Source: a virus
Lineage: Duplodnaviria > Caudoviricetes
Length of the DNA: 63,261 nucleotides
Virus record (IMG/VR): IMGVR_UViG_3300033067_002102
Location: 1-63,261 of that record
Reading direction: 5' to 3' (one strand)
Shown here: positions 5,372 to 46,059 of the stretch, one piece after another
Position numbering within the stretch: position 1 is the stretch's first letter
Layout: each line of letters starts with the position of its first letter
Made by a program: the position numbers and the translations under genes
Notes under the pieces: generated by a model
The model's database searches: none
What the model was told of the DNA's origin: nothing
Seen by the model: only the letters and a program-made list of their open reading frames with translations

Positions 5372-5590
5372 CTAGTAGGTGTGTCCACAGTAAATGCACG
5401 GCGCCGCCCACGACCCGTCCCGGTCATTGTAGCCTTGCGCCGGGTGCTTGTGTTTGCACGTGTCGCGCACGGCCTTGAGAAGGCCGCGGAGCGCTCGCAC
5501 CTCGTGCTCCGCTTGCGCGAGCGCCGCACTGATGCGGTCGGTCTCCTCTTTCATCCGCGTTTGCTCTACGGGCAACGTAACCGAAATCAT
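5372..5590 (-). CDS. Small protein with Cys/His cluster
   Basis: AAGGAG RBS; CKHKH...CIYCG. Confidence 0.65.
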   Translation of the reverse strand: MISVTLPVEQTRMKEETDRISAALAQAEHEVRALRGLLKAVRDTCKHKHPAQGYNDRDGSWAAPCIYCGHTY

Positions 5591-5602
5591 ACATAGCTCC
5601 TT

Positions 5603-5659
5603 GTTCAGCCGTTCAATCGGGCGCCGGAGTCTCGCTCCGGCGCCCTCAGAACCTCCGAA
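5603..5659 (-). ncRNA. Repeated structured RNA-like element, copy 2
   Basis: TTCGGAGGTTC-TGA-GGGCGCCGGAG-CGAGA-CTCCGGCGCCC-GATT-GAAC-GGCTGAAC. Confidence 0.7.
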
Positions 5660-5962
5660 TCAAAGCGAGAGGTAGAGGCCGGTCGCGGACTCCACGACGC
5701 GGCGGAGCGAGTCCGCGTAGACATCCGAGGCCACGTGCGTCTCTTCATAGGCCGCGTTGAACACGGACACGCTGTAGGTGTCGGTCGCGTCCAGCGTGAT
5801 GCAAACCGCCTTCACCTTCTTGTTGTTGCGGCCCACCTTGAACGTGAGGCTATGGCTACCGCCGATGAAGTCCTTGGCGCCGGCCATCACCTTGAGCTTC
5901 GCAGCTCCGCCGAGTTGAGCGAGAATCGTTTGCGCGACAGGCATTGTGTTTTGTGTGTTCAT
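5660..5962 (-). CDS. Conserved-looking phage early protein (ILAQLGG...DTY...DVY...TGLYLSL), probably leaderless
   Basis: Pattern resembles a widespread uncharacterised phage family; ATG 7 nt after -10 box. Confidence 0.8.
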   Translation of the reverse strand: MNTQNTMPVAQTILAQLGGAAKLKVMAGAKDFIGGSHSLTFKVGRNNKKVKAVCITLDATDTYSVSVFNAAYEETHVASDVYADSLRRVVESATGLYLSL

Positions 5963-6007
5963 GAGAGGTACTCTACTCCTCTAAAATAAAAGTGCAAGCT
6001 CTTTTAT
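5958..6007 (-). promoter_or_regulatory. Early promoter repeat B (identical to 4851-4900)
   Basis: 50-bp direct repeat. Confidence 0.8.
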
Positions 6008-6014
6008 AAAAATA

Positions 6015-6072
6015 GTTCGGCCGTTCAATCGGGCGCCGGAGTCTCGCTCCGGCGCCCTCAGAACCTCCGAAC
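6015..6072 (-). ncRNA. Repeated structured RNA-like element, copy 3
   Basis: Nearly identical to copy 2; begins immediately after the DUF932 stop codon. Confidence 0.7.
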
Positions 6073-6073
6073 G

Positions 6074-7237
6074 TTACGCCACCATATCCATCAGCTTGCC
6101 CGCGCGGGTTTCCAAGTCCGTGCGGTCATCAGCGTTCGCGATGTCACGCGCCACGGCGGTCAAGCCTTGCTCCACGTTCCACAGGGAGAGCGGGTTGCCG
6201 GGGCGGGTCTCAGCGTAATCAAGCGCTTCGGCCACTTGCGTTTGCGTGAACTTCATCCCCGCAAGCTTCGCCTTCACCGCCTTGACGTTGTCGCCGAGCG
6301 TGAGGTCTTGTGCGCGTCGAATCATCTCCACAGTGCTTTGCGTGCCGCTCTCCAAGTAGCGGGTGAGCGCCGGGCGAGCTTCGCGCAAGAAGCGGTCAGG
6401 CGCACCGGCCGTGTGACGGATACGCAACTCCTTGAAGTCCCGCACGCCCCACACGTTGCGGTTGTCGCAAACGTGGTCATAGAGGAACGAGGCGAGCACG
6501 AGCGAACCGTGCATGGTCTCAGAGTTGCTCACGTAGAAGCCGCGGAACAACTCGTGGCCGGGCTCGCCGGGCACTTCGATGGGGTGCGAGTCATCCACGA
6601 GGAACACGAACACGTCACGGTCAGAGGCATAGAGCGTGGTCGCGCGCTTCGGGTCCTTTGCCGCGTAGCTCGCGCTCGGGACCTTCCACTCCGGGCCACA
6701 GTTGCGCATGACGGCGTCCACCACCTCGATGTCCCAGATACGGCCGTAGCTCGGGCTCGTGATGCACCGCGCTTGTGTGGGCGTCTCCGAGCCCGCGAGG
6801 TCGTCACGCGTGATGAGGAGCTTAGCGTCTTGGCGCTCTGCCTTGCTCAAGCTGTAGCTCAGGTTGAGCGCGGCGAGTGGTGCCGGGAGCTTGCGGAGGT
6901 ACGCGGCCGGCACTTGGGCGCGTGAGCAGAGCTGACCAAAGCTCGCGTGGGTGAGGCGAGCGCCCGAGCCGCCCTTATCCTTGTTGAATACCACGACCTC
7001 TTGCTCCATGCCGTCCGCGTCCTTGTCGGCGGCGCGCACGTCGAAACGCTCCAGGGCCGCGCCCGGAAGCTCGCGGCTACGGTTGCGGCGGTCCAAGACC
7101 GAGGCGCGGAGCGTGGCCATGTCCACAAAGCGCTGGTCATCGGGGCGGCTCGCCCACTGGCGCGAGACGGTGCCGAGGACGGCCATTTCTTTCACTTCGC
7201 GGACTTGGACGGGGCTGGTTTCGGTTTGCGTGTTCAT
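6074..7237 (-). CDS. DUF932 family protein
   Basis: VSRQWASRPDDQRF, ITSPSYGRIWD, TLYASDRDVFVFLVD, RGFYVSNSE, VCDNRNVWG. Confidence 0.85.
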   Translation of the reverse strand: MNTQTETSPVQVREVKEMAVLGTVSRQWASRPDDQRFVDMATLRASVLDRRNRSRELPGAALERFDVRAADKDADGMEQEVVVFNKDKGGSGARLTHASFGQLCSRAQVPAAYLRKLPAPLAALNLSYSLSKAERQDAKLLITRDDLAGSETPTQARCITSPSYGRIWDIEVVDAVMRNCGPEWKVPSASYAAKDPKRATTLYASDRDVFVFLVDDSHPIEVPGEPGHELFRGFYVSNSETMHGSLVLASFLYDHVCDNRNVWGVRDFKELRIRHTAGAPDRFLREARPALTRYLESGTQSTVEMIRRAQDLTLGDNVKAVKAKLAGMKFTQTQVAEALDYAETRPGNPLSLWNVEQGLTAVARDIANADDRTDLETRAGKLMDMVA

Positions 7238-7303
7238 CTTCGTATCTCCTTCGGTCGGCGGCTTCCGGGACCATCCCGGACGGCGTCAACCGTTGATAGA
7301 GAC

Positions 7304-7337
7304 ACTTTACACTAACCAAATTAAACCGCAAGCTCTT
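7304..7337 (-). promoter_or_regulatory. Early promoter variant AAGAGC-TTGCGG-N16-TAAAGT
   Basis: Same geometry as repeats A/B; AT-rich upstream tract. Confidence 0.7.
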
Positions 7338-7434
7338 CTATGCTCTTTTTTGAAAAATAATTTAGCTTGCGTTTCTATTCTAGGTGTTCTAGGGGCGGTA
7401 GCCGAAGGGTGCGGGCTCGCGCTTCGAGGGGCGC

Positions 7435-7974
7435 TTAGCGGCCTTGGCCCCAGCGCGCGAGGGCGATGGCGTCCACGACGTTGTGGCGGTAGCTGCGCGC
7501 CGGCCAGACCACGCGCTCATGCTCTTCTTTCGTGAGCCCGAGCGGCGGCGCGAGGAACAAGCGCGACTCCAGCGCATCCGTAGGGACGCCACGCTTCCAC
7601 ACGCTCACGGGCGCGCGGGCGATGTGCGCGCTCGGGAAGCCGTTGCGGATGCCCTCCACGATGCGCCCGATGACGAAGCACAGCTCCAAGAGGTCCGAGG
7701 TAGCGGCATTGCCGCGCGCCTTGCCGTTCTCGGTCTCGGGCATTTCCACAACGAAGCGTAGCTCATCGCTCGGTTGATAGATGGCCCACGGCCCGGGGCG
7801 GCTGATGCCGAGCACAACGGCGCGCATGGTAGCGTCCACGATGTCCGAAGAAAGCGCTTCGGCCGTAGTGGTGCGCGCCCACATCGCATGACGGAGCACG
7901 CTTTGCTGGACGACGGCCACGCCGCATGCGTGCACGCCAGGGTCAATGCCGATGTAAATCGCGCTCGGGCTCAT
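7435..7974 (-). CDS. RuvC-like Holliday junction resolvase
   Basis: IGIDPG, VVEMP, VWK, DAIALA acidic motifs of the RNase H fold. Confidence 0.8.
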   Translation of the reverse strand: MSPSAIYIGIDPGVHACGVAVVQQSVLRHAMWARTTTAEALSSDIVDATMRAVVLGISRPGPWAIYQPSDELRFVVEMPETENGKARGNAATSDLLELCFVIGRIVEGIRNGFPSAHIARAPVSVWKRGVPTDALESRLFLAPPLGLTKEEHERVVWPARSYRHNVVDAIALARWGQGR

Positions 7975-8372
7975 ACGATGAACGTCCCCTTGATTTCGAT
8001 TTGGCGCAGCTCGGGGAGCGTGCGCACCACTTCAAGCTTTATTTCGCCGGGCGGCATGATGAGCAATTCTCCGCGTAGCTCGGCTTCTGCCAAGGTCTTC
8101 TTGATGGACGCTTCTATCGCGGCGATGCGTTCGTCATCCCACTTGAGCGGAGACAAGCCGTAGCTCGGCGCCGGTATCTTTGTGGGGTAGAGCGCTTCGA
8201 GGATGTTGGCCTCCATCTCGACACGCAAGCATTGCAACACGTGGAGCACGTCAACAATGAACCAAAACTCGTCTTGCGTCCACGTGCGCCGAGCGCCGCC
8301 CGGTAGCTCGAATTTGGCGCGAGTTGCCGCGGCTAGACGGCGGTCGCGCACGCGGCGTTGCTTGGCGTTCAT
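7971..8372 (-). CDS. Stand-alone protein resembling the C-terminal domain of the tail sheath
   Basis: Hand alignment to the C-terminus of 38248-39582 (see findings). Confidence 0.6.
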   Translation of the reverse strand: MNAKQRRVRDRRLAAATRAKFELPGGARRTWTQDEFWFIVDVLHVLQCLRVEMEANILEALYPTKIPAPSYGLSPLKWDDERIAAIEASIKKTLAEAELRGELLIMPPGEIKLEVVRTLPELRQIEIKGTFIV

Positions 8373-8551
8373 TCGTGCCCCTCACAGACGCACTTGACCT
8401 CGTGCTCCTCCACGTCGCGCGAGCGATAGGTCTCTTGGACCTTGGCCGCTTCGTGTCGCGCGGCCTTTTCGCAAACGTAGACGCCCACGGTCTCGCGGTC
8501 GCCATGCCCGTAGCCGTCGCCCCAGCTCTCGATGACCACGTAGACCTTCAT
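8369..8551 (-). CDS. Small DUF7336-like protein (MKVYVV...VGVY..EKAA)
   Basis: Motif pattern; ATGA overlaps at both ends. Confidence 0.65.
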   Translation of the reverse strand: MKVYVVIESWGDGYGHGDRETVGVYVCEKAARHEAAKVQETYRSRDVEEHEVKCVCEGHE

Positions 8552-8721
8552 GGCTCGTCCGCGCAGCGCTCGGCCACTTCGTCGCAGAGATAGCCGTCCG
8601 CGATGGCGCAGTGTTGCACGGCCTCCTTGCAATTCTTGGCCGGGCACGCCTCGTAGCAGATGGCCAAGAAGATGAGCGCCGCGACAGAGCCAACGATTTC
8701 AGCCCAAAAATCGTCACGCAT
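8548..8721 (-). CDS. Small membrane-anchored Cys-rich protein
   Basis: Hydrophobic N-terminal helix, 6 Cys. Confidence 0.55.
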   Translation of the reverse strand: MRDDFWAEIVGSVAALIFLAICYEACPAKNCKEAVQHCAIADGYLCDEVAERCADEP

Positions 8722-8998
8722 CGAGCACCTCTGGCGCAAAGCGCGTGCGTAACTTGTTCATGACCTTGAGGAGTGGCGCCTTTTCGTAGCCAGCTCGCGC
8801 GAGCGCGAAGAGCACCTCATCAAGCGTGGCATCCACCGTGCGCTCCACGACGAAACGGCACGTGGCGTCCACCAGCGCGCTCGTGTCGGGCGGCGTCCAG
8901 CCCGTGTCCGTCTGCACATCTTGTCCGCGTTCCACAGCTTCACGAAGCATCTTGCTCACGAACGCATCGCGCTTGAGCGCTTCGGGTGAGCGTCTCAT
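8714..8998 (-). CDS. Hypothetical protein (MRRSPEAL)
   Basis: ATGA overlap. Confidence 0.6.
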   Translation of the reverse strand: MRRSPEALKRDAFVSKMLREAVERGQDVQTDTGWTPPDTSALVDATCRFVVERTVDATLDEVLFALARAGYEKAPLLKVMNKLRTRFAPEVLDA

Positions 8999-9393
8999 AG
9001 ACACCCCACTTGTTCCAGCACTTCGACACGCGCGAGCACGCCGACCGGGCACGCTTGCCGGAGCGCCGTCTCGGCCGCAAGCTGCGCGCCGTCCACAGAG
9101 AAGCTCGTGCGGCGCACGATGACGATGAAGCACGCGCGCAGCTCCACACGCGGCTTCTCTCGCAAGAACCAACGCCGCCACCACGAAGGTTCGTAGCGTG
9201 TGGTCTCGTCACGATAGGCCGCCGTGATGGCTTCGGGCGTAGCCTCCAAGAGCTGCGCGGCAATGTCATGCACGGAGCCGCCGCGGTTGCCTCGCGCCAT
9301 CACGCGTTTGACGCGCGCCCGGAGTTGTTCGTCCGTCTCGTCCGGCTTGCGCTCCACGCCGAGGAGCGTGCCTAAAAAGTCTTCATGGTTCAT
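8995..9393 (-). CDS. Stand-alone baseplate-wedge-like (P2 gpI/DUF2612-type) protein in the early region
   Basis: DFLGTLLGVERKPDETDEQLRARV...GGS and C-terminal ALRQACPVGV motifs. Confidence 0.65.
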   Translation of the reverse strand: MNHEDFLGTLLGVERKPDETDEQLRARVKRVMARGNRGGSVHDIAAQLLEATPEAITAAYRDETTRYEPSWWRRWFLREKPRVELRACFIVIVRRTSFSVDGAQLAAETALRQACPVGVLARVEVLEQVGCL

Positions 9394-9670
9394 CGTTCCA
9401 TCCGTCCTTCACCAGCCGTTGTTTGATTTGGCGCACGCGCTCCTCGCGCCGTTCGTTCTTCTCGGAGAGCTGCCACATGCGGCTAGACGAGCCTCCACAC
9501 GCTGCCCAGAAGCAACACGGGCATCCGCCTTCGCCCACAAACTTCGCTTGAGCGCGGTCTATCGTGTCTTGCGTGCGCTTGATTTGGCGCAGCAAGTGAT
9601 ACAGCTCCAGCCGTAGCCCGCGAAGCTTGCGCTTCGGGCTACAGCCGAGGAAGCAAAGCAGCTTACGCAT
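9383..9670 (-). CDS. Hypothetical basic protein
   Basis: Operon packing. Confidence 0.55.
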   Translation of the reverse strand: MRKLLCFLGCSPKRKLRGLRLELYHLLRQIKRTQDTIDRAQAKFVGEGGCPCCFWAACGGSSSRMWQLSEKNERREERVRQIKQRLVKDGWNDEP

Positions 9671-9917
9671 AACCCCTAGCCTCATCTTGCAACCTCGCCA
9701 CGTTCTCCTTGAGCGCGCCCACTTCCTCTTGCAGCTTCGTCACCGCGCCCTCGGCGTGGACGAGCGAGATATGCAGCACGGCCAACTCTCGGAGCAGCTC
9801 CATCGTGACGTGCCACGGTTGCGGGCCCGGGCCGTGCACAGTGACGAGGCGCTCCTTGAAGGAGTCCATGAACGCCCGAGCGAGCTTTTTCTCTTCTTCG
9901 GTCCATTCGTTAGACAT
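9663..9917 (-). CDS. Hypothetical coiled-coil protein
   Basis: GAGGT RBS; operon packing. Confidence 0.65.
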   Translation of the reverse strand: MSNEWTEEEKKLARAFMDSFKERLVTVHGPGPQPWHVTMELLRELAVLHISLVHAEGAVTKLQEEVGALKENVARLQDEARGYA

Positions 9918-10338
9918 CGGCCACCTCATCGCCGAGCGGCTCCCACAGCCGGCGCATGTAGTCCCAGCGCGCCTTGAGCCACTCGCGCACCTTCGGCTCG
10001 TCCTCGGCTTTGATGTTCTTGACGGTGTGGCTCGCGAACATCCCCTTACGCTGGTGCATCATGAAGATGGTCAGCTCCGGCGTTTCGCGCCCGTTCCACT
10101 CGGGTCCGGCCGGGTCCCAGTCCCAACGGAAGACCATGTTGTAGTCCTCGTCCGAGTCGCCGAATTCCTCGAAGAACGCCGCCCAGCTCTCCCAAGAGTG
10201 CTCGCAATTGTTGCTGTAGTAGTTGGCCGTGGAGCAGTGATACGGGTGCTCCGCGCCCCACAGCTTGCCCGCTTGTCGCCCGGCGAGCCTCCACGCCTTC
10301 TCTTCTTTATCGTTCTTGACTGGTGTCTCGTAGTTCAT
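9910..10338 (-). CDS. Conserved-looking phage hypothetical protein (HPYHC...DYNMVFRWDW...QRKG...LWEPL)
   Basis: AGGAG RBS; aromatic-rich motifs. Confidence 0.75.
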   Translation of the reverse strand: MNYETPVKNDKEEKAWRLAGRQAGKLWGAEHPYHCSTANYYSNNCEHSWESWAAFFEEFGDSDEDYNMVFRWDWDPAGPEWNGRETPELTIFMMHQRKGMFASHTVKNIKAEDEPKVREWLKARWDYMRRLWEPLGDEVADV

Positions 10339-10374
10339 GTCCCCTTCTCCTTTGCCCTGCCAAGGGCGTTTAGC

Positions 10375-10818
10375 TCACTGCGTTTGTTTAGGCGCTAGCG
10401 CTTTTAGCTCTTGCAGGTATTGGCAGAATTCGTCAATACACCGCACCGGAATGTGGATGCTTTCGTGCGCGCCCGTGAGGTCCATGCGCACCTCCACCGC
10501 GGCGTGGTTCGGACTGCCTTCGTCCTTGAGCTGCATAAAGTAGCGCCAGAAGTGCCGGCGCGTGAGCTTGTCCACATCCGCCGCGGCGCTTGCCGCAGCG
10601 CTGGCCAAGTCCTTCGCCACCGCCCGGCGCCGCTCCAGCTCTAGGCGCTGGAGCGGGCCACAGTTATGACCTTGCTTTTGCTCCTCGCTGCAATGGTCGC
10701 ACATCGGAAGCGAGCCCGAGCCGGCGCACCGCTCGCAACGTTCGTACTGAAAGCGGAGCCCGAGCGGTGCCTTGAGCGCGCCCGAGCCCTCGCACACGGG
10801 GCACATCTTACCGCTCAT
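10375..10818 (-). CDS. Protein with DnaJ-type CxxCxGxG zinc-finger repeats
   Basis: CPVCEGSG, CERCAGSG, CDHC. Confidence 0.7.
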   Translation of the reverse strand: MSGKMCPVCEGSGALKAPLGLRFQYERCERCAGSGSLPMCDHCSEEQKQGHNCGPLQRLELERRRAVAKDLASAAASAAADVDKLTRRHFWRYFMQLKDEGSPNHAAVEVRMDLTGAHESIHIPVRCIDEFCQYLQELKALAPKQTQ

Positions 10819-11177
10819 GATGACGCCCCAAGTTGCACAAGCGGCTCCATCGTGCACCCGCGCCCCACGTGGTCGCACGCTCCGCCGTAGGGGTATTCAC
10901 TGCACATGCGCGGGCGCTTTTCGTAGGCCGTACAGTCGCCGGTCTCCTTGTTGAGGTGCCGGCACGTGTAATATTCGCCTTGGTCGCCGTTCGGGTACGT
11001 CTTGGGCTCGCCGAGCGGGATGAGCATGTCATGGATGTAAACCACGTCCGAGAAGACCTTGCGGCCGTTCATGTCTATCGGCAGCCCTCGCAAAGCCGCT
11101 TGCGCATTTGCGGTGATGTCCTTGAGCGTGACCGGCAACGGAAAGCGCCGGCAGCAATGTCCCGTGCACCGGCTCAC
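10815..11177 (-). CDS. YkgJ-family (CxxxCC) cysteine-cluster protein
   Basis: CTGHCC...CRHL...CTAYEKRPRMCSEYP; GTG start. Confidence 0.8.
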   Translation of the reverse strand: MSRCTGHCCRRFPLPVTLKDITANAQAALRGLPIDMNGRKVFSDVVYIHDMLIPLGEPKTYPNGDQGEYYTCRHLNKETGDCTAYEKRPRMCSEYPYGGACDHVGRGCTMEPLVQLGASS

Positions 11178-11635
11178 AGCGGGCTCCTTTCCAGCTCGGC
11201 CATGCGCTCGGGCGTGAGCGGCTCCAGCTCGCGGTGCTGCGCCTCGAAGCATACGAAGGCCGGGAGCTTGAAGTGTGCCGCGTCGTGCTTGATGTGCGCG
11301 CCGTCGCGGAACGGCGTGTCCAGCCGCGCGCAATACTCGCGCGACCCACCGCCGCCCACCTTCGTGGAGCTGAGAGGCGTAGCAATGAGGTGCCCAAGGT
11401 AGTGACGTTGCACGAGCAAGTAGTCACAGATGGCGTTGTCCCCATCGAGCGCGCGCCAGCGCAGCTCCAAGCGCGGGATGGGGAGGCCGTTGTTCTCCGT
11501 GATGCTCACCTTGCGGATGTCGCGCCACCTCCACGAGTCCACATACTTCGCATCGTTTTCGGCGCGGAGCTTCTTCTCCAGCTCGTTTTCAAGCTCATTG
11601 ATGCGCTCGTTGAGCCGTTCTTCTAGCGTTGCCAT
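11174..11635 (-). CDS. Hypothetical protein
   Basis: TAATG coupling with upstream gene. Confidence 0.7.
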   Translation of the reverse strand: MATLEERLNERINELENELEKKLRAENDAKYVDSWRWRDIRKVSITENNGLPIPRLELRWRALDGDNAICDYLLVQRHYLGHLIATPLSSTKVGGGGSREYCARLDTPFRDGAHIKHDAAHFKLPAFVCFEAQHRELEPLTPERMAELERSPL

Positions 11636-11865
11636 TAGCAGCACCCCGCGTCCGCGAAAGCGTGCGTGGATGGCTCCGTGTGAGTCGGCGCGTCGAAGGT
11701 GAAGTCCGGTGCCTTGCTCAAGTCCGGCTTCTCACCGTCGTTCCCGCGCTGCTCCACGCCGAGCTTGCGCGCCGCTTCGAGGTCCGGCGCGATGACGAGC
11801 AACGCGCCTCCGTCGTGCCAGTTGTTCGTGATGTGATTGACGTTGCTCCAGATAAACGCTTTCAT
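11635..11865 (-). CDS. Hypothetical protein (MKAFIWSNV...DAGCC)
   Basis: GGAGG RBS; ATGA overlap. Confidence 0.7.
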   Translation of the reverse strand: MKAFIWSNVNHITNNWHDGGALLVIAPDLEAARKLGVEQRGNDGEKPDLSKAPDFTFDAPTHTEPSTHAFADAGCC

Positions 11866-12185
11866 CGGTACTTCGCCTCCGCCTCTTCTCGGGTGTAGAT
11901 TTTGTGGCCTTCGTCGTCTTCGTTGTAGATGTCCGCGAGCGTCTTGCCGGTCATGCGGAAGTGCTCCAGCTCCTCTACGGTGCACCGGCACTCCGGCTTG
12001 ACCTCGCCCATGAGCCGGGCCTCTTCGTAGCAGCTCGGCGCGAACACCAGCCGTTGTCCTCCGCAACGGCGGCAATAGTTATCGCGGTCACGTATGGCGT
12101 TGAGCCCGTGCCATTGCGGCACCGGTCGCCCGTCTTGCCGCGCTCGCGTCTCCGCGAGCCGTTTGGTGAAAACTTCATCGTTCAT
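11862..12185 (-). CDS. Hypothetical Cys-containing protein
   Basis: GGAGG RBS; ATGA overlap. Confidence 0.65.
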   Translation of the reverse strand: MNDEVFTKRLAETRARQDGRPVPQWHGLNAIRDRDNYCRRCGGQRLVFAPSCYEEARLMGEVKPECRCTVEELEHFRMTGKTLADIYNEDDEGHKIYTREEAEAKYR

Positions 12186-12499
12186 GGTGCCTCCACCGCG
12201 TCGCGGACACGCTTGTATTCGTCGCGCGCCTTGCTGCTACGCGAACATGCGATGTTCACAGCGAGTGGGCATGTGGCCGCGAAATAGACGCCTCGGGCGC
12301 TATCACGCACCGGATTGATGCGCCGGCCGCACGAAACGCAGTGCGTCTCCAGCTCCATCGCCTCCACGTGTAAGCCCGTAGGCATCGGATTGAAGTTGAT
12401 GCGGAAGCGCGGATTCTTGTGCCCGCCATCGCGCGAGTAAAGCTCTATACGCACGAAGGGCCTGAGCTTCGGAAAAAGTGGGTGCTCTGTGAACGTCAC
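12182..12499 (-). CDS. Hypothetical protein (CVSC...C...C)
   Basis: GTGA overlap with ligase stop. Confidence 0.65.
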   Translation of the reverse strand: MTFTEHPLFPKLRPFVRIELYSRDGGHKNPRFRINFNPMPTGLHVEAMELETHCVSCGRRINPVRDSARGVYFAATCPLAVNIACSRSSKARDEYKRVRDAVEAP

Positions 12500-13473
12500 A
12501 TGTCACTCCGGTCTCGGAAGCCGAGAAACACGGGCGAGCGTGGCGCGTCCTTCGCGCCGTGCGGCTGATGTTTGAACTTCACCGTGGCAAGGAGGAGGTC
12601 TTCTTGGATGCGCCAGAAATGGTCCTTCTGCACATCCGTCGTGCCCGAGCCGCACCGAAAGGTGAGCTTGCCCGAGCCCAAGCACTCCTCGCACCACGAC
12701 GTGGAGGAGGTGCGCTTGTCCGCCTTGCACGCGGTGCACGGGCGTTCTTCATTCGGAAATTGGAGGATGAACGCGCCGAGGCGCGAGGTCATGACCAAGC
12801 CCTCCTTCGAGCTGGAGCGTTTGGCGTAGCCGCGCTCGTCCCGCTTTTGCTCGTTCTCGTTCACATAGAGCGGCTCAAAGCCGACAACGATTGCCTCCGC
12901 ATCCTCGAAGCGCTTGACCTTGAGGAGCGCGCCCTCCCGCATCGTGCTCCGGCCCCACTTGTAGAGACCGTTCGGGTCGCGGAGCATGATGCCCTCGTAG
13001 CCCTTCTTGAGCTGGTGTTGCTCGTAGGTGGCTAGCTCCTCCCCGCTCGTGATGAGCACGTGCTCCACGGCGCGCACGAAGTGGCGCTCTTGCAAGCGCT
13101 CAATCGTAGCGATGTCCAGCGCACGGCGATAGCGCTCTTGGAACGGGAGCGCCGGGTCCGTGTGGTGGTCGAAGACGTTGAACGTGATGCCGTCCGTCTC
13201 GCCGTCGTGGCTCATGACGGCGCTCGTCACGTCTTGGAAGGTCTCACCGGCCATCAGCTCGCCGTCTAGGCCCTCCAGCTCGGGGCGCTGGAGAAGCTCG
13301 CGGAGCTTCTTGTTCGGGACCGGCTTGAGCGAGCGCGTGAGCGCGAGCCCATCACGCACCACGCACCGGATGCCGTCCAGCTTCGGCGAAGCTACGAGCG
13401 GGTAACGCAACGTCTCGAAGTCCGGCAACTCGCTACACGCGAGCATTGGCTTGAAGGTTTTCTCTTTGCTCAC
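12496..13473 (-). CDS. lig: ATP-dependent DNA ligase
   Basis: SPKLDGIR (motif I), LDGEL, FNVFD, EGIMLR, LLKVKRFEDAEA, PRSPVF. Confidence 0.95.
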   Translation of the reverse strand: MSKEKTFKPMLACSELPDFETLRYPLVASPKLDGIRCVVRDGLALTRSLKPVPNKKLRELLQRPELEGLDGELMAGETFQDVTSAVMSHDGETDGITFNVFDHHTDPALPFQERYRRALDIATIERLQERHFVRAVEHVLITSGEELATYEQHQLKKGYEGIMLRDPNGLYKWGRSTMREGALLKVKRFEDAEAIVVGFEPLYVNENEQKRDERGYAKRSSSKEGLVMTSRLGAFILQFPNEERPCTACKADKRTSSTSWCEECLGSGKLTFRCGSGTTDVQKDHFWRIQEDLLLATVKFKHQPHGAKDAPRSPVFLGFRDRSDM

Positions 13474-13694
13474 TTAAGCACCGTGCCTATCTCGCCGCGC
13501 ACGAGCCCGAGCGTCTCCCGGATAAACTCCTCCGCCTCGCCCACGCTCTTAGCGTTGACGATGGAACGGCGCACCTCGATGCGCTGCGCTTCCGTCAAGC
13601 CCGACATGGCCGTTTCAACCCGCTTCAAAAACTCGCTTGGGAGTTGGCTGACCGGGAAGCGCTCAAAGCTCACTTCTTTTTCTTGCTTGCTCAT
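13470..13694 (-). CDS. Hypothetical protein (74 aa)
   Basis: GGAGGAG RBS. Confidence 0.7.
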   Translation of the reverse strand: MSKQEKEVSFERFPVSQLPSEFLKRVETAMSGLTEAQRIEVRRSIVNAKSVGEAEEFIRETLGLVRGEIGTVLK

Positions 13695-37305: not shown

Positions 37306-37682
37306 GCCTCATCCGTCGCAAACTTCGGATGGACCGAGTGGTCAAGCGCTTCGCTTTGACTGCGGACCTCATGATTGAACGCTTCGGCGGTGGTGCCTAC
37401 GTGGACGGCCGCTGGGTGAACGAGCAACCCACGCAAGTGGCGCTCACGGCGAACGTTCAGCCCGCGGGCGGGCGGCAGCTTATGCGCCTCCCCGAGGGCG
37501 ACCGCACGCGCGACAACATCACGGTGTGGAGCACGAGCGAGCTACGCCCCGTTGCGCGAGCACAGGGCAAGCCGGGAGACCTCGTGCTCTGGAACGGCGA
37601 GCGCTACGAGGTCATTCAGCTCAACGATTGGAGCGCGAACGGCGACTACTGGGAAGCCACGTGCGCGAAGGTGGACCAATGA
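37302..37682 (+). CDS. Head closure protein
   Basis: ANVQPA...LPEGDR...DLVLWNGERYEV; position. Confidence 0.75.
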   Translation: MSLIRRKLRMDRVVKRFALTADLMIERFGGGAYVDGRWVNEQPTQVALTANVQPAGGRQLMRLPEGDRTRDNITVWSTSELRPVARAQGKPGDLVLWNGERYEVIQLNDWSANGDYWEATCAKVDQ

Positions 37683-38248
37683 CGAGCACCGCAATGGACT
37701 GGCGCGCCATCGAGGCGGCGTTCAAAGGGCTCGTCAAGGGCGCCATCGGGCTTGAGTGCGTGTGGGGGAACAGCAACGGCGTTCAACCTGACCGCTCCTA
37801 CGTCATGCTTACGTGGCTCGGCTTTGACAATATTTCCGATAGCGGTTCTTATGATTCTTTCGACGAAGCGCGCAACGTCATCTCGCGCAACTACTACGCC
37901 AGCCGCACGGCGCAAGTAGATGTGCAAGCGATTGCAAAGAGCAATCGAGCCGGTGACAACGCGCTCGCGTTCGTGGACGCGCTCATGGTCGCCTTCGACA
38001 TGGAAGCGCTCCCGAAGAGATGGCTTGCGCCGGTAGGCATAGCCGTGTCAGATTTCACCGCAGCGCGACTTCTCGACGCAGTCGAGGACGGTGGCCGCAT
38101 CGTCAGCCGCGCAGCATTCACCCTAAAACTCAACCTGGCCGCTAACGTGGCCGGGGCAGAGACGCCGACCACCATCGAATCGGTGGCGCTCACCGGCAAT
38201 GTTTCTGGCCTAACCGGCGCGTTGAGCGTCGCACGAGAGGACACCTAA
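37679..38248 (+). CDS. Tail terminator protein
   Basis: Position directly before sheath; QPDRSYV motif. Confidence 0.7.
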   Translation: MTSTAMDWRAIEAAFKGLVKGAIGLECVWGNSNGVQPDRSYVMLTWLGFDNISDSGSYDSFDEARNVISRNYYASRTAQVDVQAIAKSNRAGDNALAFVDALMVAFDMEALPKRWLAPVGIAVSDFTAARLLDAVEDGGRIVSRAAFTLKLNLAANVAGAETPTTIESVALTGNVSGLTGALSVAREDT

Positions 38249-39582
38249 TGGCTGGCTTGGACGACATCATCAACCTGACCATCACCATCGAATCCAGCTC
38301 CATCACGCGGGCGGGCTTCGGCACGCCACTCGTGGCGGACTACAACACGCGCTATTCCGGCGCGCTTGTGCGGAGCTACAGCAAGCCGAGCGCGATGGTG
38401 GCGGACGGCTTCGTCGTGTCGGACCCGGCTTACGTCGCGGCGAATGCGATGATGAGCCAGAACCCGCGCCCGCGCACCGTGAAAATCGGACGCCGCACGC
38501 ACGGCCCGGCGCAGCGCTTCAACTTCACGCCGCTCACCGGCACCGCGCGCACCTACGCGTTCGGCATCGCCATCACAGGCGGCGCCAAGCAATCGGTGAG
38601 CTATGCCGCGGCCTCCGCGGACTCGGCGAACACCATCGTCAACGCGCTCACGGCGCAAGTGGCCGCACTCTCGGGCTACGGTGGCGCCGGCCTCACGGCG
38701 AGCAACCAAACGGGCGTGCTCCGCATCCAAGGCCCGGCAACGGGTCCGAAGTTCGTGGTCACGGACGCGGACATCTCGCAATGGACGAGCATCCTCGATG
38801 ATACGCAAGACGCGTCACTCGCCACGGACCTCGATGCCATCGAGCTGGAGGACTCGGACTGGTACGGCTTCATCAGCACGTCCAAGGGAACGAACGAGCT
38901 GAACGCCGCGGCCGGCTGGGTCGCGTCGCGCCGCAAGTTCTTCATCGGCGGCACGCAAAACAGTGACATCGCCAGCGCGGTCACGAATGACATCGCCTCT
39001 ACGCTCAAGGCCGCGAGCCAAGTGCGCACGGCCTTGTTCGTGAACGACGGCGCGCACAACCAAGGCGACGCGGCGGCGCTCGGCAAGTGGCTTCCGTACA
39101 CGCCGGGCTCCGAGACCATGAAGTTCAAGACCATCGTCGGCGTGTTGCCGACGAAGTGGACGGACACCCAGCTCGGCTACATCAAGGCCAAGAACGCCAA
39201 CTACTACATCACGGTGGCCGGCACCTCGATGTTTGGCGAGGGCAAGACGTGCCAGGGCGAATTCATGGACACGATTCGTTTCGTGGACTGGCTCTACGCG
39301 AACATCCAAGAGGAAATCTTCGGCATCCTCAACCGTGAAATCAAGGTGCCATTCACGGACGATGGCGTGGCGCAAATCGAAAGCGGTATCCGCGCGGTGC
39401 TCAAGCGCGGTGTGAACGCGGGCGGCTTGGCGAAGAACCCGGCTTTCTCGGTCACGGTGCCGCTCGTGGCGGACGTGAGCACGCTCGACAAGAGCGCGCG
39501 CCGCCTCCCGGACATCACCTTTAACGCAACCTTGGCCGGCGCGATTCACGAGCTGGACATCTCTGGAACCGTGTCCGTCTAA
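38248..39582 (+). CDS. Contractile tail sheath protein (DUF3383-like)
   Basis: AGFGTPL, MKFKTIVGV, GEFMDTIRFVDWL, KVPFTDDG, AGAIH. Confidence 0.93.
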   Translation: MAGLDDIINLTITIESSSITRAGFGTPLVADYNTRYSGALVRSYSKPSAMVADGFVVSDPAYVAANAMMSQNPRPRTVKIGRRTHGPAQRFNFTPLTGTARTYAFGIAITGGAKQSVSYAAASADSANTIVNALTAQVAALSGYGGAGLTASNQTGVLRIQGPATGPKFVVTDADISQWTSILDDTQDASLATDLDAIELEDSDWYGFISTSKGTNELNAAAGWVASRRKFFIGGTQNSDIASAVTNDIASTLKAASQVRTALFVNDGAHNQGDAAALGKWLPYTPGSETMKFKTIVGVLPTKWTDTQLGYIKAKNANYYITVAGTSMFGEGKTCQGEFMDTIRFVDWLYANIQEEIFGILNREIKVPFTDDGVAQIESGIRAVLKRGVNAGGLAKNPAFSVTVPLVADVSTLDKSARRLPDITFNATLAGAIHELDISGTVSV

Positions 39583-39606: not shown

Positions 39607-40044
39607 ATGGGTTTGAAAGTTTACGACCCCGCGCAAGTGGTGGTCATTTTCGGCGGGGCGAAAATCGACGGCATGGCGCCGTCCAGCCGAGTCAAAATCA
39701 CCTTCCCCGAGCTTTACACGAAGGTGGTGGGCATTGACGGCGAGGTGGGCCGCGGCAAGAAGAACGACCGCACGGCCTCCGTCACCATTGAGTTGCTCCA
39801 GACGAGCTTGAGCAACGATGTGTTGATGGCCTTTTTCGTGGCGGACGACGCGAGCCCCATCGGCGCGATTCTCCCGCTCATGATTAAGAACCTCAACGGG
39901 ACCACGCTCTTCGTCACGCCTGGCGCGTGGATTAAGAAGCTCCCCGAGGTCACCTACGCGGCGGAGGTCGGGACCAACACGTGGGAAATCGACTGCTCCG
40001 ACGTGGAGAGCTTCGTGGGCGGACAAGTCAGCGTCACGGGCTAA
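39607..40044 (+). CDS. Tail tube protein (DUF3277-like)
   Basis: YDPAQVVV, VGIDGE, TIELLQTS.SN, WEI. Confidence 0.9.
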   Translation: MGLKVYDPAQVVVIFGGAKIDGMAPSSRVKITFPELYTKVVGIDGEVGRGKKNDRTASVTIELLQTSLSNDVLMAFFVADDASPIGAILPLMIKNLNGTTLFVTPGAWIKKLPEVTYAAEVGTNTWEIDCSDVESFVGGQVSVTG

Positions 40045-43061: not shown

Positions 43062-43436
43062 ATGTTGCTCGTGACGACGTACCCGCAAGAGGAAAACTAC
43101 AACATGCAAGTGAGCCTTGAGGGCGTCACTTACGTGTTGTCGTTTCTGTGGAACGCGCGGTGTGAGGCGTTCTTCATTAGCATGTCCAGCGTGGACGGCA
43201 CGAAGCTCGTCTCCGGCGTGAAGCTCTGCGCGAGCACGCCGCTTTTTGCAAATGTGCGCCTCGGGCCGCCCGGCGTGCTCTTCGTTTACGACTCCTCGGG
43301 CCAAGACAAAGACCCGGGCAAGCTGGAGCTGGGCAAGGACAAGCGGTGCCAGCTCTACTATCTCACGGCCGCGGAGGTCGCGCTCCTCCAGCAAGGCTAT
43401 GACGTGTTCGCGGGGGCGGTAGATGCCTCAACGTGA
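43062..43436 (+). CDS. Baseplate plug-like protein
   Basis: VSLEGVTY.LSF.WNAR...LYY. Confidence 0.7.
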   Translation: MLLVTTYPQEENYNMQVSLEGVTYVLSFLWNARCEAFFISMSSVDGTKLVSGVKLCASTPLFANVRLGPPGVLFVYDSSGQDKDPGKLELGKDKRCQLYYLTAAEVALLQQGYDVFAGAVDAST

Positions 43437-44268
43437 CCTCTTTGACCGCGTGTGCATCGTCAACGTTGACGGCTCGGAGCTGATAAACTTCGACGTTGAC
43501 GGCGAGGTCGTGCTCACGACCGAGACCACGCCGAACAAAGCCAAAATCAAAATTTACAACTTGGACAAAGACCTCCAAGCGGCGGTGCGCAAGAAGGACG
43601 CGCGCGTGGCTCTCACGCTCGGCTACCAAAACGCGGACTTCGCGGAGGTGTTCTTAGGGGACATCCGCTACGCGCCGAGCGGGCTCGTGGGCTCGGATTG
43701 GGTGACGGTGCTCGAAGCGGGCGACGCGGAGCGCGCGATTCAACAGAGCCAAGCGGCCATCACGTGGGCCAAGGGTAAGGACGTGTCGAAGGTCGTGGAG
43801 GAGCTGCTCCAGACCTTCGAGGACGTGGATATGGGGGACTTTCAGCAGACCTTCAAGTCCAAGGTGATGGAGCAATTCCCGAACGGCGGCGCGTTCAGCG
43901 GTAACAGCATGCGCGTGCTCGATGAGATTTTGCGCGGCTACGGCTGGACCGTGAGCGTCCAGAAACGCAAGTTCCAATTCATTCAGCTCAGCACCGGCAA
44001 GAACACGGAGATAGTGCAATCGCTCGACCCAAGCACCGGGCTTATTGACGAGCCGGACGTGGGCGAGCCGGACAAGAAGACCGGCAAGGCGAAGGCGAAA
44101 ATTACATCCTTGCTCATGCCCAAGATTATCCCGGGGTGCCAAGTGCACGTGACCGGCACGACGGACGGGCTCCGCGATGGTGACTACACGGTGCAAAAGG
44201 TCACGCATCAATTCTCCAACTGGCAACCGAAACCGTTCTATACGGTGATGGAGGCCACGACCACATGA
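43423..44268 (+). CDS. Baseplate hub protein
   Basis: NKAKIKIYNL, LTLGY, VFLGDI, TGLIDEP, LLMPKI.PG. Confidence 0.85.
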   Translation: MPQRDLFDRVCIVNVDGSELINFDVDGEVVLTTETTPNKAKIKIYNLDKDLQAAVRKKDARVALTLGYQNADFAEVFLGDIRYAPSGLVGSDWVTVLEAGDAERAIQQSQAAITWAKGKDVSKVVEELLQTFEDVDMGDFQQTFKSKVMEQFPNGGAFSGNSMRVLDEILRGYGWTVSVQKRKFQFIQLSTGKNTEIVQSLDPSTGLIDEPDVGEPDKKTGKAKAKITSLLMPKIIPGCQVHVTGTTDGLRDGDYTVQKVTHQFSNWQPKPFYTVMEATTT

Positions 44269-45154: not shown

Positions 45155-45657
45155 GCTTTCGTCCCACTGAATTTGCCGCAGACCTCGCCAACATCTCGGG
45201 CGCTGATGAAGCCGCGACCATCGCGTCATGGCGCGCAGCGTTCTACACCTACGAGCGGCAGTGCATCACGGACAACGGCGTCTCTATCACCGCGAGTGGC
45301 GCGGCACACTCGACCGCGCTTGATGCTTTCTCGGCGGCAATGGTCGGCTTGTCCGACCTCAGTACCGGGGGCGCGCCAAAGATTCAAGCGGCCATCATCG
45401 CGTTTTGGGACTACATCGCGAACCCTAGTAACATCGGTTTTTATTTCGCTGGCGGTTCTAACATGGTGAAGCCGGCCGGTCTCACGGGCATTCAAGCAGC
45501 CATTGAGGCGACCTATCCGGGAAACCTTGCGATTGATGTGAACTTGCCGATTGCCACGCAACGCTCCATGGCATGCACGAACGTCGCAAACGCCATTCAC
45601 GGTTGCCACTCGGGCGGGACGGTGCGCATCGGCGGCGTGGATAGGGTAATTTCATGA
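45151..45657 (+). CDS. Hypothetical baseplate-associated protein
   Basis: Overlapping starts/stops within the baseplate operon. Confidence 0.65.
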   Translation: MSFRPTEFAADLANISGADEAATIASWRAAFYTYERQCITDNGVSITASGAAHSTALDAFSAAMVGLSDLSTGGAPKIQAAIIAFWDYIANPSNIGFYFAGGSNMVKPAGLTGIQAAIEATYPGNLAIDVNLPIATQRSMACTNVANAIHGCHSGGTVRIGGVDRVIS

Positions 45658-46037
45658 GTGACATCAAGCTGGACAACACGCACGACATTGACGTGACTAA
45701 CTCAGAGGTCACGCTCGTCTACGACGAAGAGGCCATCACCCAAGAAATCAAAATCGGGATGCGCTTCTTTCAGGGCGAGTGGTTCTTGGACCAACGCGTG
45801 GGCATCCCCTACTTTCAGCGCATCTTCACCGGAGAGAAAACGGATGACATGGCCATCGTTCAGGCCACGTACCGGCGTGCGCTGTACAGCATCCCCGGGG
45901 TGCTCAACGTGGATTACGTCAACGCGAGCTATGACGATGATGCGTCACTTCGTCGCGTGAACGTGGAGTGGCGCTGCCAGGTTTCGGGCGAGCCGGAGAC
46001 ATTCATTGAGGGCGTGGAAGCGCTCGTGATACCGTAA
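45654..46037 (+). CDS. Baseplate wedge / sheath initiator (gp25-like)
   Basis: FQGEWFLD..GIPY, IPGV..V. Confidence 0.85.
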   Translation: MSDIKLDNTHDIDVTNSEVTLVYDEEAITQEIKIGMRFFQGEWFLDQRVGIPYFQRIFTGEKTDDMAIVQATYRRALYSIPGVLNVDYVNASYDDDASLRRVNVEWRCQVSGEPETFIEGVEALVIP

Positions 46038-46059
46038 AAACGCGGGTCAGGAAGGGACT

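What the first reader, a model, noticed from the sequence alone, without database searches (positions are those of the whole stretch)
7971..8372. Truncated tail-sheath look-alike encoded among early genes
Seen by hand alignment with the sheath (38248-39582): TWTQDEF..VDVLHVLQCLRVEMEANILEAL vs TCQGEFMDTIRFVDWLYANIQEEIFGIL; LKWDDERIAAIEASIKKTLAEAELRGEL vs VPFTDDGVAQIESGIRAVLKRGVNAGGL; and the terminal LRQIEIKGTFIV vs IHELDISGTVSV. It lies 30 kb from the tail operon on the opposite strand. Known: the sheath C-terminal domain and terminal strand mediate inter-subunit polymerisation. Inference: a dominant-negative poison of competing phage tails or host contractile machines (T6SS/eCIS/tailocins), or a decoy for immune sensors of tail proteins. 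With 8995-9393 this is my best candidate for an undescribed system.
Basis: partly seen in the sequence, partly recalled or inferred. Interest (0 to 1): 0.85.

Follow-up and report, generated by a model that had tools for sequence, protein, structure and literature searches.

The report
Free-standing tail-sheath C-terminal domain gene
A small phage gene in the DNA-replication operon encodes a stand-alone, well-conserved copy of the tail sheath domain that links sheath subunits, joined to a new arginine-rich helix, so it may control or block sheath assembly, though its function is untested.

Summary
ORF 7971-8372 (-), 133 aa, is a true remote homologue of the last ~105 residues of the phage's own DUF3383 sheath (38248-39582).

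- **Homology.** Pairwise comparison is only marginal. An 11-member family profile matches a 32-sheath profile end to end, with hhalign probability 98.7% and E 4e-16. It also hits solved sheaths, the window's own sheath at E 4e-9, and the sheath C-terminus in 18 of 18 related viral records.
- **What is copied.** The matched part is the whole sheath C-terminal domain: two long helices, a beta-hairpin platform and the terminal strand. The first ~39 residues are an arginine-rich helix with no sheath counterpart.
- **Selection and context.** The gene is under purifying selection (dN/dS 0.10). It overlaps its neighbours' start and stop codons and keeps its place before a RuvC-like resolvase in a 44%-identical relative.
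- **Function.** Untested. My best guess (0.35) is a modulator of the phage's own sheath polymerisation by beta-sheet augmentation. A link with ORF 8995-9393 is not supported.

The parts
7971..8372 (-). Gene for the 133-aa small protein (P0001): basic N-terminal helix plus a sheath C-terminal-domain homologue
   Evidence: ORF list. About 11 family members. dN/dS 0.10 against L001. GC by codon position 0.63/0.42/0.74. A GAGG motif precedes the ATG, and the start and stop overlap the neighbouring genes as ATGA.
8256..8372 (-). Residues 1-39: arginine-rich N-terminal helix and linker, with no counterpart in the sheath
   Evidence: N2, Q5, R6, R7, R11 and R18 are invariant in 11 sequences. Net charge of residues 1-30 is +4 to +9 in 10 members. 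There are 11 synonymous and 0 non-synonymous changes against L001. hhalign against the sheath profile gives E 0.52. AF2 predicts helix 3-20.
7974..8255 (-). Residues 40-133: homologue of sheath residues 340-444 (two long helices, beta-hairpin, C-terminal strand)
   Evidence: hhalign 98.7%, E 4.1e-16. PDB sheath hits. The family HMM hits sheath C-termini in 18 of 18 records.
7974..8012 (-). Residues 121-133: C-terminal strand, aligned with the sheath's terminal 'handshake' strand
   Evidence: I125, I127 and G129 are invariant or nearly so. It aligns to the sheath's last residues. Logan contig record 3 of run X1 covers 7651-8217 with no differences or gaps. Relative L001 has two 1-base insertions here.
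38248..39582 (+). Tail sheath gene (DUF3383 type), 444 aa
   Evidence: Pfam DUF3383 E 1.3e-33. phrog_205 E 1.1e-91.
39265..39579 (+). Sheath residues 340-444, the part homologous to the small protein
   Evidence: hhalign. The family HMM hits 39268-39570 at E 4.4e-9.
7435..7974 (-). RuvC-like Holliday-junction resolvase gene; its ATG overlaps the small gene's stop codon
   Evidence: phrog_1770 E 1.2e-6. Adjacency is conserved in L001 and L002.
8369..8647 (-). Upstream small gene (DUF7336-like); its stop codon overlaps the small gene's ATG
   Evidence: Pfam DUF7336 E 4.8e-5, 23.6 bits, just below the 25-bit cut-off. Present in L001 but not found in L002.
45654..46037 (+). Small baseplate wedge protein of the phage's own tail module, in the position expected for a gp25-like sheath initiator
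   Evidence: phrog_120 'baseplate wedge subunit' E 1.1e-15. It has no Pfam match of note, and GPW_gp25 is not listed. No likeness to the small-protein family by hhalign. 'gp25-like' is my inference from size and position.
37526..38248 (+). Tail/neck terminator gene directly upstream of the sheath
   Evidence: Pfam Phage_tail_terminator_9 E 1.8e-10.
39607..40044 (+). Tail tube gene
   Evidence: phrog_280 E 1.6e-33. Pfam KPP10_Orf10 E 2.6e-11. pI 4.7.

Best explanation
SHOWN. The gene encodes a stand-alone paralogue of the complete C-terminal domain (CTD) of a DUF3383-type tail sheath: two long helices, an antiparallel beta-hairpin and the C-terminal strand. A conserved arginine-rich helix that the sheath lacks sits in front of it. 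The gene is a selected, lineage-core gene of a small clade of high-GC myophages, and it sits in the replication/recombination operon directly before a RuvC-like resolvase.

INFERRED. [quoted passage not shown] The small protein keeps both elements but lacks the N-terminal strand and the outer domains. It therefore most likely docks on the phage's own sheath subunits by beta-sheet augmentation and cannot propagate the lattice.

I propose that it modulates sheath polymerisation. It could cap or chaperone sheath monomers, for example to prevent off-pathway polysheath until baseplate and tube are ready. The basic helix may contact an acidic partner: the tube has pI 4.7.

I rate the homology and selection part at about 0.95 and the mechanism at about 0.35. 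The confidence given for this explanation is that of the mechanism.
For: Homology:
- hhalign 98.0% / E 2.2e-13 and 98.7% / E 4.1e-16, end to end.
- The profile hits solved sheath chains: 9zdk_S E 7.5e-5, 9mt4_Q 2.6e-4, 9c39_H 6.2e-4, 7kh1 'tail sheath protein gp6' 0.013.
- 4 of 11 members hit Pfam DUF3383 and 9 of 11 hit phrog_205 'tail sheath'.
- The family HMM hits the window's own sheath at E 4.4e-9 and the sheath C-terminus in 18 of 18 viral records, with no other hit at E <= 0.01.

Real, selected gene:
- dN/dS 0.10. The N-terminal 39 codons have 11 synonymous and 0 non-synonymous changes.
- The codon-position GC pattern is that of a coding frame.

Core-gene behaviour:
- Only the ligase, this gene and the RuvC-like gene are recovered in the 44%-identical relative L002. 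The other small genes are not.

Domain role:
[quoted passage not shown] It is the binding platform for the handshake strands of the ring above.
- The 117-aa gp25-like initiator there 'resembles the CTD' (PMC10457771, passages).
- AF2 secondary structure fits this: long helices at 33-61 and 80-99, then strands.

The phage already has a terminator, sheath, tube and a small wedge protein, so this protein is an extra rather than a missing part.
Against:
- Structure comparison is inconclusive. Foldseek ranks sheaths first but at E ~0.7. VIA-align Z is at most 4.5, tied with unrelated helical hairpins. The better model also used sheaths in its alignment.
- The gene lies 30 kb from the tail genes in a DNA-metabolism operon, and its only stably linked neighbour is a resolvase. 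That fits a DNA-related role at least as well.
- The invariant arginine-rich helix suggests nucleic-acid binding.
- In relative L001 two 1-base insertions replace the last four residues and add 11. One member (P0132, 97 aa) lacks the hairpin. Neither element is therefore strictly kept.
- The window's own member has an insertion in the conserved K-x-P-F-T-D loop.
- 17 of 17 more distant phages with a DUF3383 sheath do without such a gene.
Confidence: 0.35

Rival explanations
1. The sheath domain has been exapted for a DNA/RNA-related job. The arginine-rich helix binds nucleic acid, and the sheath-derived domain serves as an oligomerisation or partner-binding module. The protein works with the translationally coupled RuvC-like resolvase, or in gene regulation, and has no role in the tail.
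For: - Stop/start overlap with the RuvC-like gene.
- This pairing is the only neighbourhood kept in the 44%-identical relative.
- The location is between the ligase, ThyX and polymerase genes and the resolvase.
- The N-terminal 30 residues carry net +4 to +9 with invariant R6, R7, R11 and R18, and they are the most constrained part, with 0 non-synonymous changes.
- The motif reminds me of arginine-rich RNA-binding motifs of lambdoid N proteins. That is recalled only and comes from no call.
Against: - The residues that are invariant or nearly so in sheaths (the K-x-P-[FY]-T loop, the G before the terminal strand, and the I-x-I-x-G pattern) are kept in the family. This suggests the original structural contacts still matter.
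- The N-terminal 30 residues have no match in PDB chains or Pfam.
- Adjacency of two core genes can simply reflect conserved gene order.
Confidence: 0.25
2. The protein is a dominant-negative cap that poisons contractile sheaths of co-infecting phages, tailocins or the host's T6SS/eCIS, or it is a decoy for a host sensor of sheath protein.
For: - It has the platform and the C-terminal strand but no N-terminal strand, so it could bind but not extend a sheath lattice.
- It is encoded apart from the tail genes.
- Tail-assembly blocking is an established strategy, as in Tab and Tai (PMC10884400 and PMC11364771, abstracts).
- In a tree, the family lies outside the phage's own sheath lineage.
- The family profile scores some foreign sheaths higher than the window's own: 50.9 bits against 32.3.
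Against: - Purifying selection is strong and the gene has a fixed position as a lineage-core gene. It does not look like a sporadic accessory gene.
- No integrase was found in the window or in the complete relative G001, so a lysogen-expressed exclusion function is unlikely.
- There is no meaningful PADLOC hit: 2 single-member hits at E 0.007-0.014.
- The phage's own sheath would be a target, and no immunity partner is evident.
- No target was tested.
Confidence: 0.15
3. It is a minor structural part of the phage's own tail, such as an extra adaptor at the baseplate end or neck end of the sheath that offers or occupies a handshake site.
For: - Free-standing CTD-like proteins are used in this way: the gp25-like initiator of XM1 resembles the sheath CTD.
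- The XM1 terminator donates a C-terminal strand to the sheath sheet (PMC10457771, passages).
Against: - The tail module already has a terminator and a small wedge protein.
- The gene is not in the structural module.
- 17 of 17 related phages with a DUF3383 sheath lack it.
- hhalign finds no likeness to the phage's own small wedge protein.
Confidence: 0.1
4. The likeness is chance, or the ORF is a decaying, non-functional leftover of a sheath duplication.
For: - The pair alone is not significant.
- The window's member hits no family HMM directly.
Against: - Profile-profile E 4e-16 and 18 of 18 sheath hits.
- dN/dS 0.10.
- Eleven full-length relatives.
Confidence: 0.02

Closest known systems
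C-terminal domain of DUF3383-type phage tail sheaths (Pfam PF11863; related PF17482 Phage_sheath_1C), e.g. XM1 gp6, Sf14 and Bas63 sheaths
   Same: Sequence homology over the whole domain, in register to the last residue. This includes the K-x-P-[FY]-T loop between the two helices and the terminal I-x-I-x-G-x-x-x-V strand.
   Different: - It is 133 aa instead of about 430-560.
- It has no N-terminal strand, N-terminal domain or insertion domain.
- It adds an arginine-rich helix with no sheath counterpart.
- It is encoded in the replication operon on the other strand.
gp25-like / TssE-type sheath initiators (e.g. XM1 gp15, 117 aa)
   Same: A free-standing protein of similar size. Its fold resembles the sheath CTD, and it acts as a platform for the terminal strands of sheath subunits (PMC10457771, passages).
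   Different: - No sequence match to GPW_gp25 among 11 members at E <= 10, nor to the phage's own small wedge protein.
- It is not in the baseplate module.
- It keeps a sheath-type C-terminal strand of its own.
Tab and Tai tail-assembly blockers of prophages and satellites
   Different: - Tab and Tai are expressed from prophages or satellites and come with counter-defence partners.
- No integrase or partner is seen here.
- Sequence relationship was not tested directly. PADLOC 2023 gave nothing.
- From the abstracts and section headings, Tab targets the tape-measure protein, not the sheath.
Tail terminator C-terminal strand (XM1 gp5)
   Same: It caps a sheath end by adding a beta-strand to the CTD sheet (PMC10457771, passages).
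   Different: It has a different fold and family. The window has its own terminator at 37526-38248.

Membership tests
Tail sheath protein, DUF3383 type (PF11863) | C-terminal domain homologous to the family's CTD, including the terminal strand | tested here: met
   hhalign E 4.1e-16. 4 of 11 members hit PF11863. 9 of 11 hit phrog_205. PDB sheath hits.
Tail sheath protein, DUF3383 type (PF11863) | Full-length architecture: N-terminal strand, N-terminal domain, CTD, about 430-560 aa | tested here: not met
   133 aa. Residues 1-39 have no match to the sheath profile (E 0.52). Sheath frames in relatives are 439-562 aa.
Tail sheath protein, DUF3383 type (PF11863) | Encoded in the tail module next to the terminator and tube genes | tested here: not met
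   It lies between a DUF7336-like gene and a RuvC-like gene, about 30 kb from the tail module and on the other strand.
Tail sheath protein, DUF3383 type (PF11863) | Polymerises into a six-start contractile lattice around a tube | not testable with these tools
gp25-like sheath initiator (GPW_gp25 / TssE) | Sequence match to the family model or to the phage's own baseplate copy | tested here: not met
   GPW_gp25 is not among the 8 Pfam families matched by any of 11 members at E <= 10. hhalign against 45654-46037 gives probability 0.3%.
gp25-like sheath initiator (GPW_gp25 / TssE) | Fold resembling the sheath CTD that offers a platform for sheath terminal strands | tested here: inconclusive
   Homology to the CTD is shown by sequence. 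The model is weak in the strand region (pLDDT 44-54), and fold searches are non-significant.
gp25-like sheath initiator (GPW_gp25 / TssE) | Sits on the baseplate wedge and is encoded with baseplate genes | tested here: not met
   Gene position. The baseplate genes are at 43423-47211.
Known anti-phage defence proteins (PADLOC-DB 2.0) including tail-assembly blockers | Match to a defence-family model | tested here: not met
   0 families for the window's protein. There are two single-member hits at E 0.007 and 0.014 among 11 members. Tab and Tai date from 2024 and may not be in this 2023 library.
Arginine-rich RNA-binding motif proteins (lambdoid N type) | N-terminal arginine-rich helix that binds an RNA hairpin | not tested
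   The resemblance is recalled only. phmmer of residues 1-30 against PDB chains found nothing. No RNA target was sought.

The most novel reading that the evidence does not exclude
A phage makes a soluble mimic of the sheath's 'handshake' module (platform plus C-terminal strand, no N-terminal strand). This mimic caps polymerising contractile sheaths by beta-sheet augmentation. It would be the first natural protein regulator or inhibitor of sheath polymerisation that works by subunit mimicry, and it could act on the phage's own sheath (timing or anti-polysheath control) or on rival contractile machines.
Probability: 0.3. Interest if true: 0.8.

Novelty: new variant of a known kind. Interest (0 to 1): 0.55.

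Why it matters
Sheath polymerisation in phage tails, tailocins, eCIS and T6SS is known to be started by a gp25/TssE-type platform and ended by a terminator. My six literature searches turned up no soluble sheath-domain mimic that regulates or blocks it.

A stand-alone, selected copy of exactly the inter-subunit linking module would be a simple, testable candidate for such control. If it works that way, it would also be a template for protein inhibitors of contractile injection systems.

If the domain instead works with the resolvase or on nucleic acid, it would be an example of a virion-protein domain reused in DNA metabolism.

The family is tiny. About a dozen sequences were found among 5.8 billion clustered proteins, and none among 50,697 deposited phage records. 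All come from uncultured phages, which limits immediate experiments.

Tried and rejected
**Searches and predictions that gave little**
- Pairwise BLASTP and Smith-Waterman against the window's own sheath were not significant alone.
- Megablast of 6000-12000 and tblastn of the protein against 50,697 phage records found no match.
- tblastn of member P0127 against the same records found 7 records, all matching query residues 46-135. Three are annotated 'tail sheath' and four 'hypothetical protein'. Two phages appear twice. No small homologue was found.
- The scan of 185,579 species genomes found no relative. Two viral-contig scans with the family found only the 91%-identical relative. The metagenome scan found one locus, L002.
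- AF2 with 5 family sequences gave pLDDT 59. AF2 with 43 rows, including 32 sheaths, which biases it towards the sheath fold, gave pLDDT 74, but only 44-54 over the last 30 residues.
- Foldseek against the PDB ranked three sheath chains first, but at E 0.7-0.8 and TM 0.22-0.37. VIA-align gave Z at most 4.5, tied with unrelated helical proteins. I draw no conclusion from structure.
- The ESM Atlas gave no usable hit for P0001.
- The N-terminal 30 residues matched nothing in PDB chains or Pfam.
- The promoter and terminator scan of 5500-13600 gave counts at chance level.
- Sequencing runs: no RNA holder is listed. I therefore say nothing about expression.
- Tree of the CTD (43 rows, 105 columns after dropping columns with 50% or more gaps, LG+G4, 1000 ultrafast bootstraps). 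The split between all 32 sheaths and all 11 small proteins has 98% support. The attachment point inside the sheaths is unresolved (supports 8-14). Neither origin nor date can be stated.

**ORF 8995-9393 as a partner**
- BLASTP against the phage's own baseplate J protein gave E 8.9.
- It had no PDB hit.
- It is present only in the window and G001 among 19 records, and absent from L002.
- I reject the idea that it forms a conserved pair with the small gene.

**Rows dropped or chosen**
- P0006, a 678-aa repeat protein with E 6.2e-4, was left out of all alignments as a likely spurious repeat match.
- P0129 (112 aa) was replaced in A3 by the longer reading L002:9995-10405. That reading carries two extra residues before the likely start.
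- For the sheath profile A2 I picked by hand 32 of the 120 listed sheath homologues (279 found), spanning 80% down to about 34% identity.
- For one search I picked 17 of the 80 sheath loci, those on contigs of about 44 kb or more, and added L001 and L002. L002's record was not held and was not searched.
Full report
**1. The observation**

ORF 7971-8372 (minus strand, ATG start, 133 aa) exists as described. The sheath gene at 38248-39582 is a DUF3383-type sheath, with Pfam E 1.3e-33 and phrog_205 'tail sheath' E 1.1e-91.

The pair on its own does not prove anything.
- BLASTP reports only a 17-residue match, E 0.017, to a different part of the sheath.
- The Smith-Waterman score is reached by 11 of 1000 shuffles against the whole sheath, and by 29 of 1000 against its last 115 residues.
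- The window's protein hits no Pfam or PHROG model at E <= 1.

**2. Building the family**

- An exhaustive phmmer run over 1.84 billion representatives found six proteins at E <= 1e-3.
  - Four are real relatives besides the query itself: P0002 (5.9e-22), P0003 (9.4e-17), P0004 (1.7e-6) and P0005 (4.2e-6).
  - The sixth, P0006, is a 678-aa repeat protein, which I dropped.
- A profile search then gave 11 proteins at E <= 0.01.
- The more canonical members look like a sheath C-terminus to the eye. They carry K-[IV]-P-[FY]-T-x-x-G after the first long helix and end in I-x-I-x-G-x-x-x-V.
- The window's member is one of the most divergent. It has a 9-residue insertion in that loop.

**3. Homology to the sheath**

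- hhalign of the family against a profile of 32 sheaths gave 98.0% / E 2.2e-13 with five family sequences. The 32 sheaths were chosen by hand from 120 listed.
- With eleven family sequences it gave 98.7% / E 4.1e-16.
- Both alignments cover residues 40-133 of the small protein against 340-444 of the sheath, and end at both C-termini.

Independent checks agree:
- The family profile hits solved chains. These are 9zdk_S 'gp76' (E 7.5e-5), 9mt4_Q (2.6e-4), 9c39_H (6.2e-4) and 7kh1 'tail sheath protein gp6' (0.013). All align at their C-terminal ~100 residues.
- The unrelated hits in the same list start at E 0.14.
- The Foldseek listing titles 9mt4/9mt5 and 9c39/9c3b as connector, neck and helical-tail reconstructions of phages Bas63 and Sf14.
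- 4 of 11 members hit Pfam DUF3383 directly, best E 2.4e-4, and one hits Phage_sheath_1C.
- 9 of 11 hit phrog_205 'tail sheath', best E 2.8e-8.
- In six-frame searches the family HMM hits two places in the window: itself (1.1e-43) and the sheath at 39268-39570 (4.4e-9).
- It also hits the C-terminal end of the sheath frame in 18 of 18 viral records that carry a DUF3383 sheath, at E 6e-15 to 1e-7, with no other hit at E <= 0.01.

The homology is real.

**4. What exactly is copied**

- The N-terminus of one subunit and the C-terminus of its ring neighbour form a 'handshake' sheet.
- That sheet is augmented on the CTD strands of the subunit in the ring below.
- The 117-residue gp25-like initiator 'resembles the CTD' and holds the termini of the first ring.
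- The terminator caps the top by donating a strand.

These points come from PMC10457771 (passages only).

The small protein covers that whole domain. AF2 predicts long helices at 33-61 and 80-99, followed by short strands and a terminal strand. It is therefore a complete free-standing CTD with its own C-terminal strand, and it lacks the N-terminal strand and the outer domains.

Residues 1-39 are new.
- They do not match the sheath profile (E 0.52).
- They are predicted to form a helix.
- They carry net +4 to +9 in residues 1-30.
- They hold most of the invariant positions: N2, Q5, R6, R7, R11 and R18.

**5. A working gene**

- Against the 91%-identical copy in viral contig L001, codons 1-127 show 32 synonymous and 14 non-synonymous differences, giving dN/dS 0.10. 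The N-terminal 39 codons show 11 and 0.
- The neighbouring RuvC-like gene scores 0.078.
- GC by codon position is 0.63/0.42/0.74.
- The start ATG overlaps the stop of the upstream DUF7336-like gene, and the stop overlaps the ATG of the RuvC-like gene.

One complication concerns the 3' end.
- L001 has two single-base insertions in the last 25 bases. They replace the last four residues and add eleven.
- A Logan contig of run X1 covers 7651-8217 of the window with no difference, but that run may be the source sample.

**6. Context**

- The window is a whole IMG/VR record.
- Its minus-strand half holds primase/helicase, exonuclease, helicase, DNA polymerase, thymidylate synthase and ligase. A run of small genes follows, then this gene, a RuvC-like resolvase and a DUF932-like gene.
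- The plus-strand half holds terminase, capsid, terminator, sheath, tube, chaperone, tape measure, hub, a small wedge protein and baseplate J.
- The tail module is therefore complete without the small protein.
- No tyrosine or serine recombinase was found in the window, and no tyrosine integrase in the complete relative G001.

**7. Distribution**

- The gene is confined to the window's own lineage.
- It occurs in G001 (sheath 91% identical) and in the 67.5-kb contig of L002.
- Likewise, P0131 and sheath P0016 share a longest contig of 67,978 bases. Equal contig length is only an indication.
- None of 17 more distant records with a DUF3383 sheath has a separate small copy. Fifteen of the 17 are rated at least 90% complete.
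- In L002 only the ligase, this gene and the RuvC-like gene are recovered by tblastn. The intervening small genes, including the homologues of 8369-8647 and 8995-9393, are not.
- The stable unit is therefore the small gene plus the resolvase.
- A CTD tree separates all sheaths from all small proteins with 98% support. It does not place the small family inside the phage's own sheath lineage, so origin and age stay open.

**8. Mechanism**

The following is shown:
- a selected, stand-alone sheath CTD with its C-terminal strand;
- a new basic helix;
- a fixed place in the replication/recombination operon.

The rest is inferred.
- The domain's established job is to hold and donate the strands that knit sheath subunits together.
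- A copy that can bind but not extend the lattice should cap or sequester sheath subunits.
- Because the gene behaves as a core gene under purifying selection, I favour action on the phage's own sheath (0.35). It could keep monomers from forming off-pathway polysheath until baseplate and tube are ready.
- Polysheath formation by sheath protein alone is documented (abstract of PMC6357053, seen in the listing).
- The acidic tube (pI 4.7) is a possible partner for the basic helix.

The main rival (0.25) is a nucleic-acid or resolvase-linked role, suggested by the operon, the coupling to the RuvC-like gene and the arginine-rich helix. The helix's likeness to lambdoid N-type motifs is recalled only.

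It fits less well with the core-gene behaviour, the absence of an integrase and the empty PADLOC search. A minor virion role gets 0.1, and chance or decay 0.02.

The structure comparisons were non-significant.

**9. Comparison with the known, and novelty**

- By sequence the protein belongs with the sheath CTD but fails the architecture and location criteria of a sheath.
- By design it most resembles a gp25-like initiator, but it shows no sequence link to that family or to the phage's own small wedge protein.
- Six literature searches found no description of a free-standing sheath-CTD paralogue or of a natural protein inhibitor of sheath polymerisation. They covered the following:
  - truncated or dominant-negative sheath, tail-assembly blocking, handshake, polysheath or chaperone, and beta-sheet augmentation or inhibitor;
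  - 'DUF3383', which returned 6 papers, none on this by title or abstract.
- Subscription journals and supplements were not covered.
- I class it as a new variant of a known kind.

The search of earlier findings and complex prediction were closed or unavailable. The Atlas could not read a second member.

Noticed in passing
window 8995-9393 (-): This 132-aa ORF has weak matches to baseplate families, all through an N-terminal E-T-D-E-Q-L-R-A-R-type motif. The matches are Pfam Baseplate_J (E 0.054), phrog_6 'baseplate wedge subunit' (E 0.0027), and phrog_7378 and phrog_1160 (about 0.03). BLASTP against the phage's own J protein found nothing, and there is no PDB hit. It is present only in the window and G001 among 19 records and is absent from L002. 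It may be a second tail-domain fragment, but this is unproven, and it is not a conserved partner of the sheath-like gene.
   Followed up: partly
L001 10380-10432 (the window's 7971-7995 region): The 91%-identical relative has two single-base insertions near the 3' end of the gene. They change the last four residues, add 11 residues and remove the ATGA overlap with the RuvC-like gene. Whether this is a real variant or an assembly error is unknown.
   Followed up: partly
window 8188-8290: Run X1 holds a second short contig with three differences (8237, 8238, 8256). These reproduce the L001 alleles: one L46M change and two synonymous changes, by my codon count. Two strains of this phage therefore seem to co-occur.
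   Followed up: partly
window 57707-61802 (-): A cluster of sugar-modifying genes. It holds a 694-aa fusion of GT2 and GT4 glycosyltransferase domains, a Gly_transf_sug/DXD-motif protein with a borderline TcdA/TcdB-type glycosyltransferase match (23.0 bits against a 23.6-bit cut-off), and a Methyltransf_24 protein. This could reflect DNA or host-surface modification.
   Followed up: no
window 10375-10878 (-): A 167-aa protein with CxxC repeats gives a weak match to the DnaJ central zinc-finger domain (E 0.0012, below the cut-off). It is conserved in L001.
   Followed up: no
window 6074-7237 (-): A 387-aa protein of phrog_1362 (E 6e-44) with a weak DUF932 match. It follows the resolvase after a 197-base gap, the only sizeable intergenic space nearby.
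   Followed up: no
whole window: CheckV rates the window 58% complete at 63,261 bases, while the 91%-similar 61,276-base relative G001 is rated 100%. The window is probably close to complete.
   Followed up: no
P0132 (97 aa, from a 2.8-kb contig): A short family member lacks the beta-hairpin. It keeps the basic helix, the two helices and a C-terminal nine residues identical to the window's. This suggests the hairpin platform is dispensable in some members, or that the gene call is partial.
   Followed up: no
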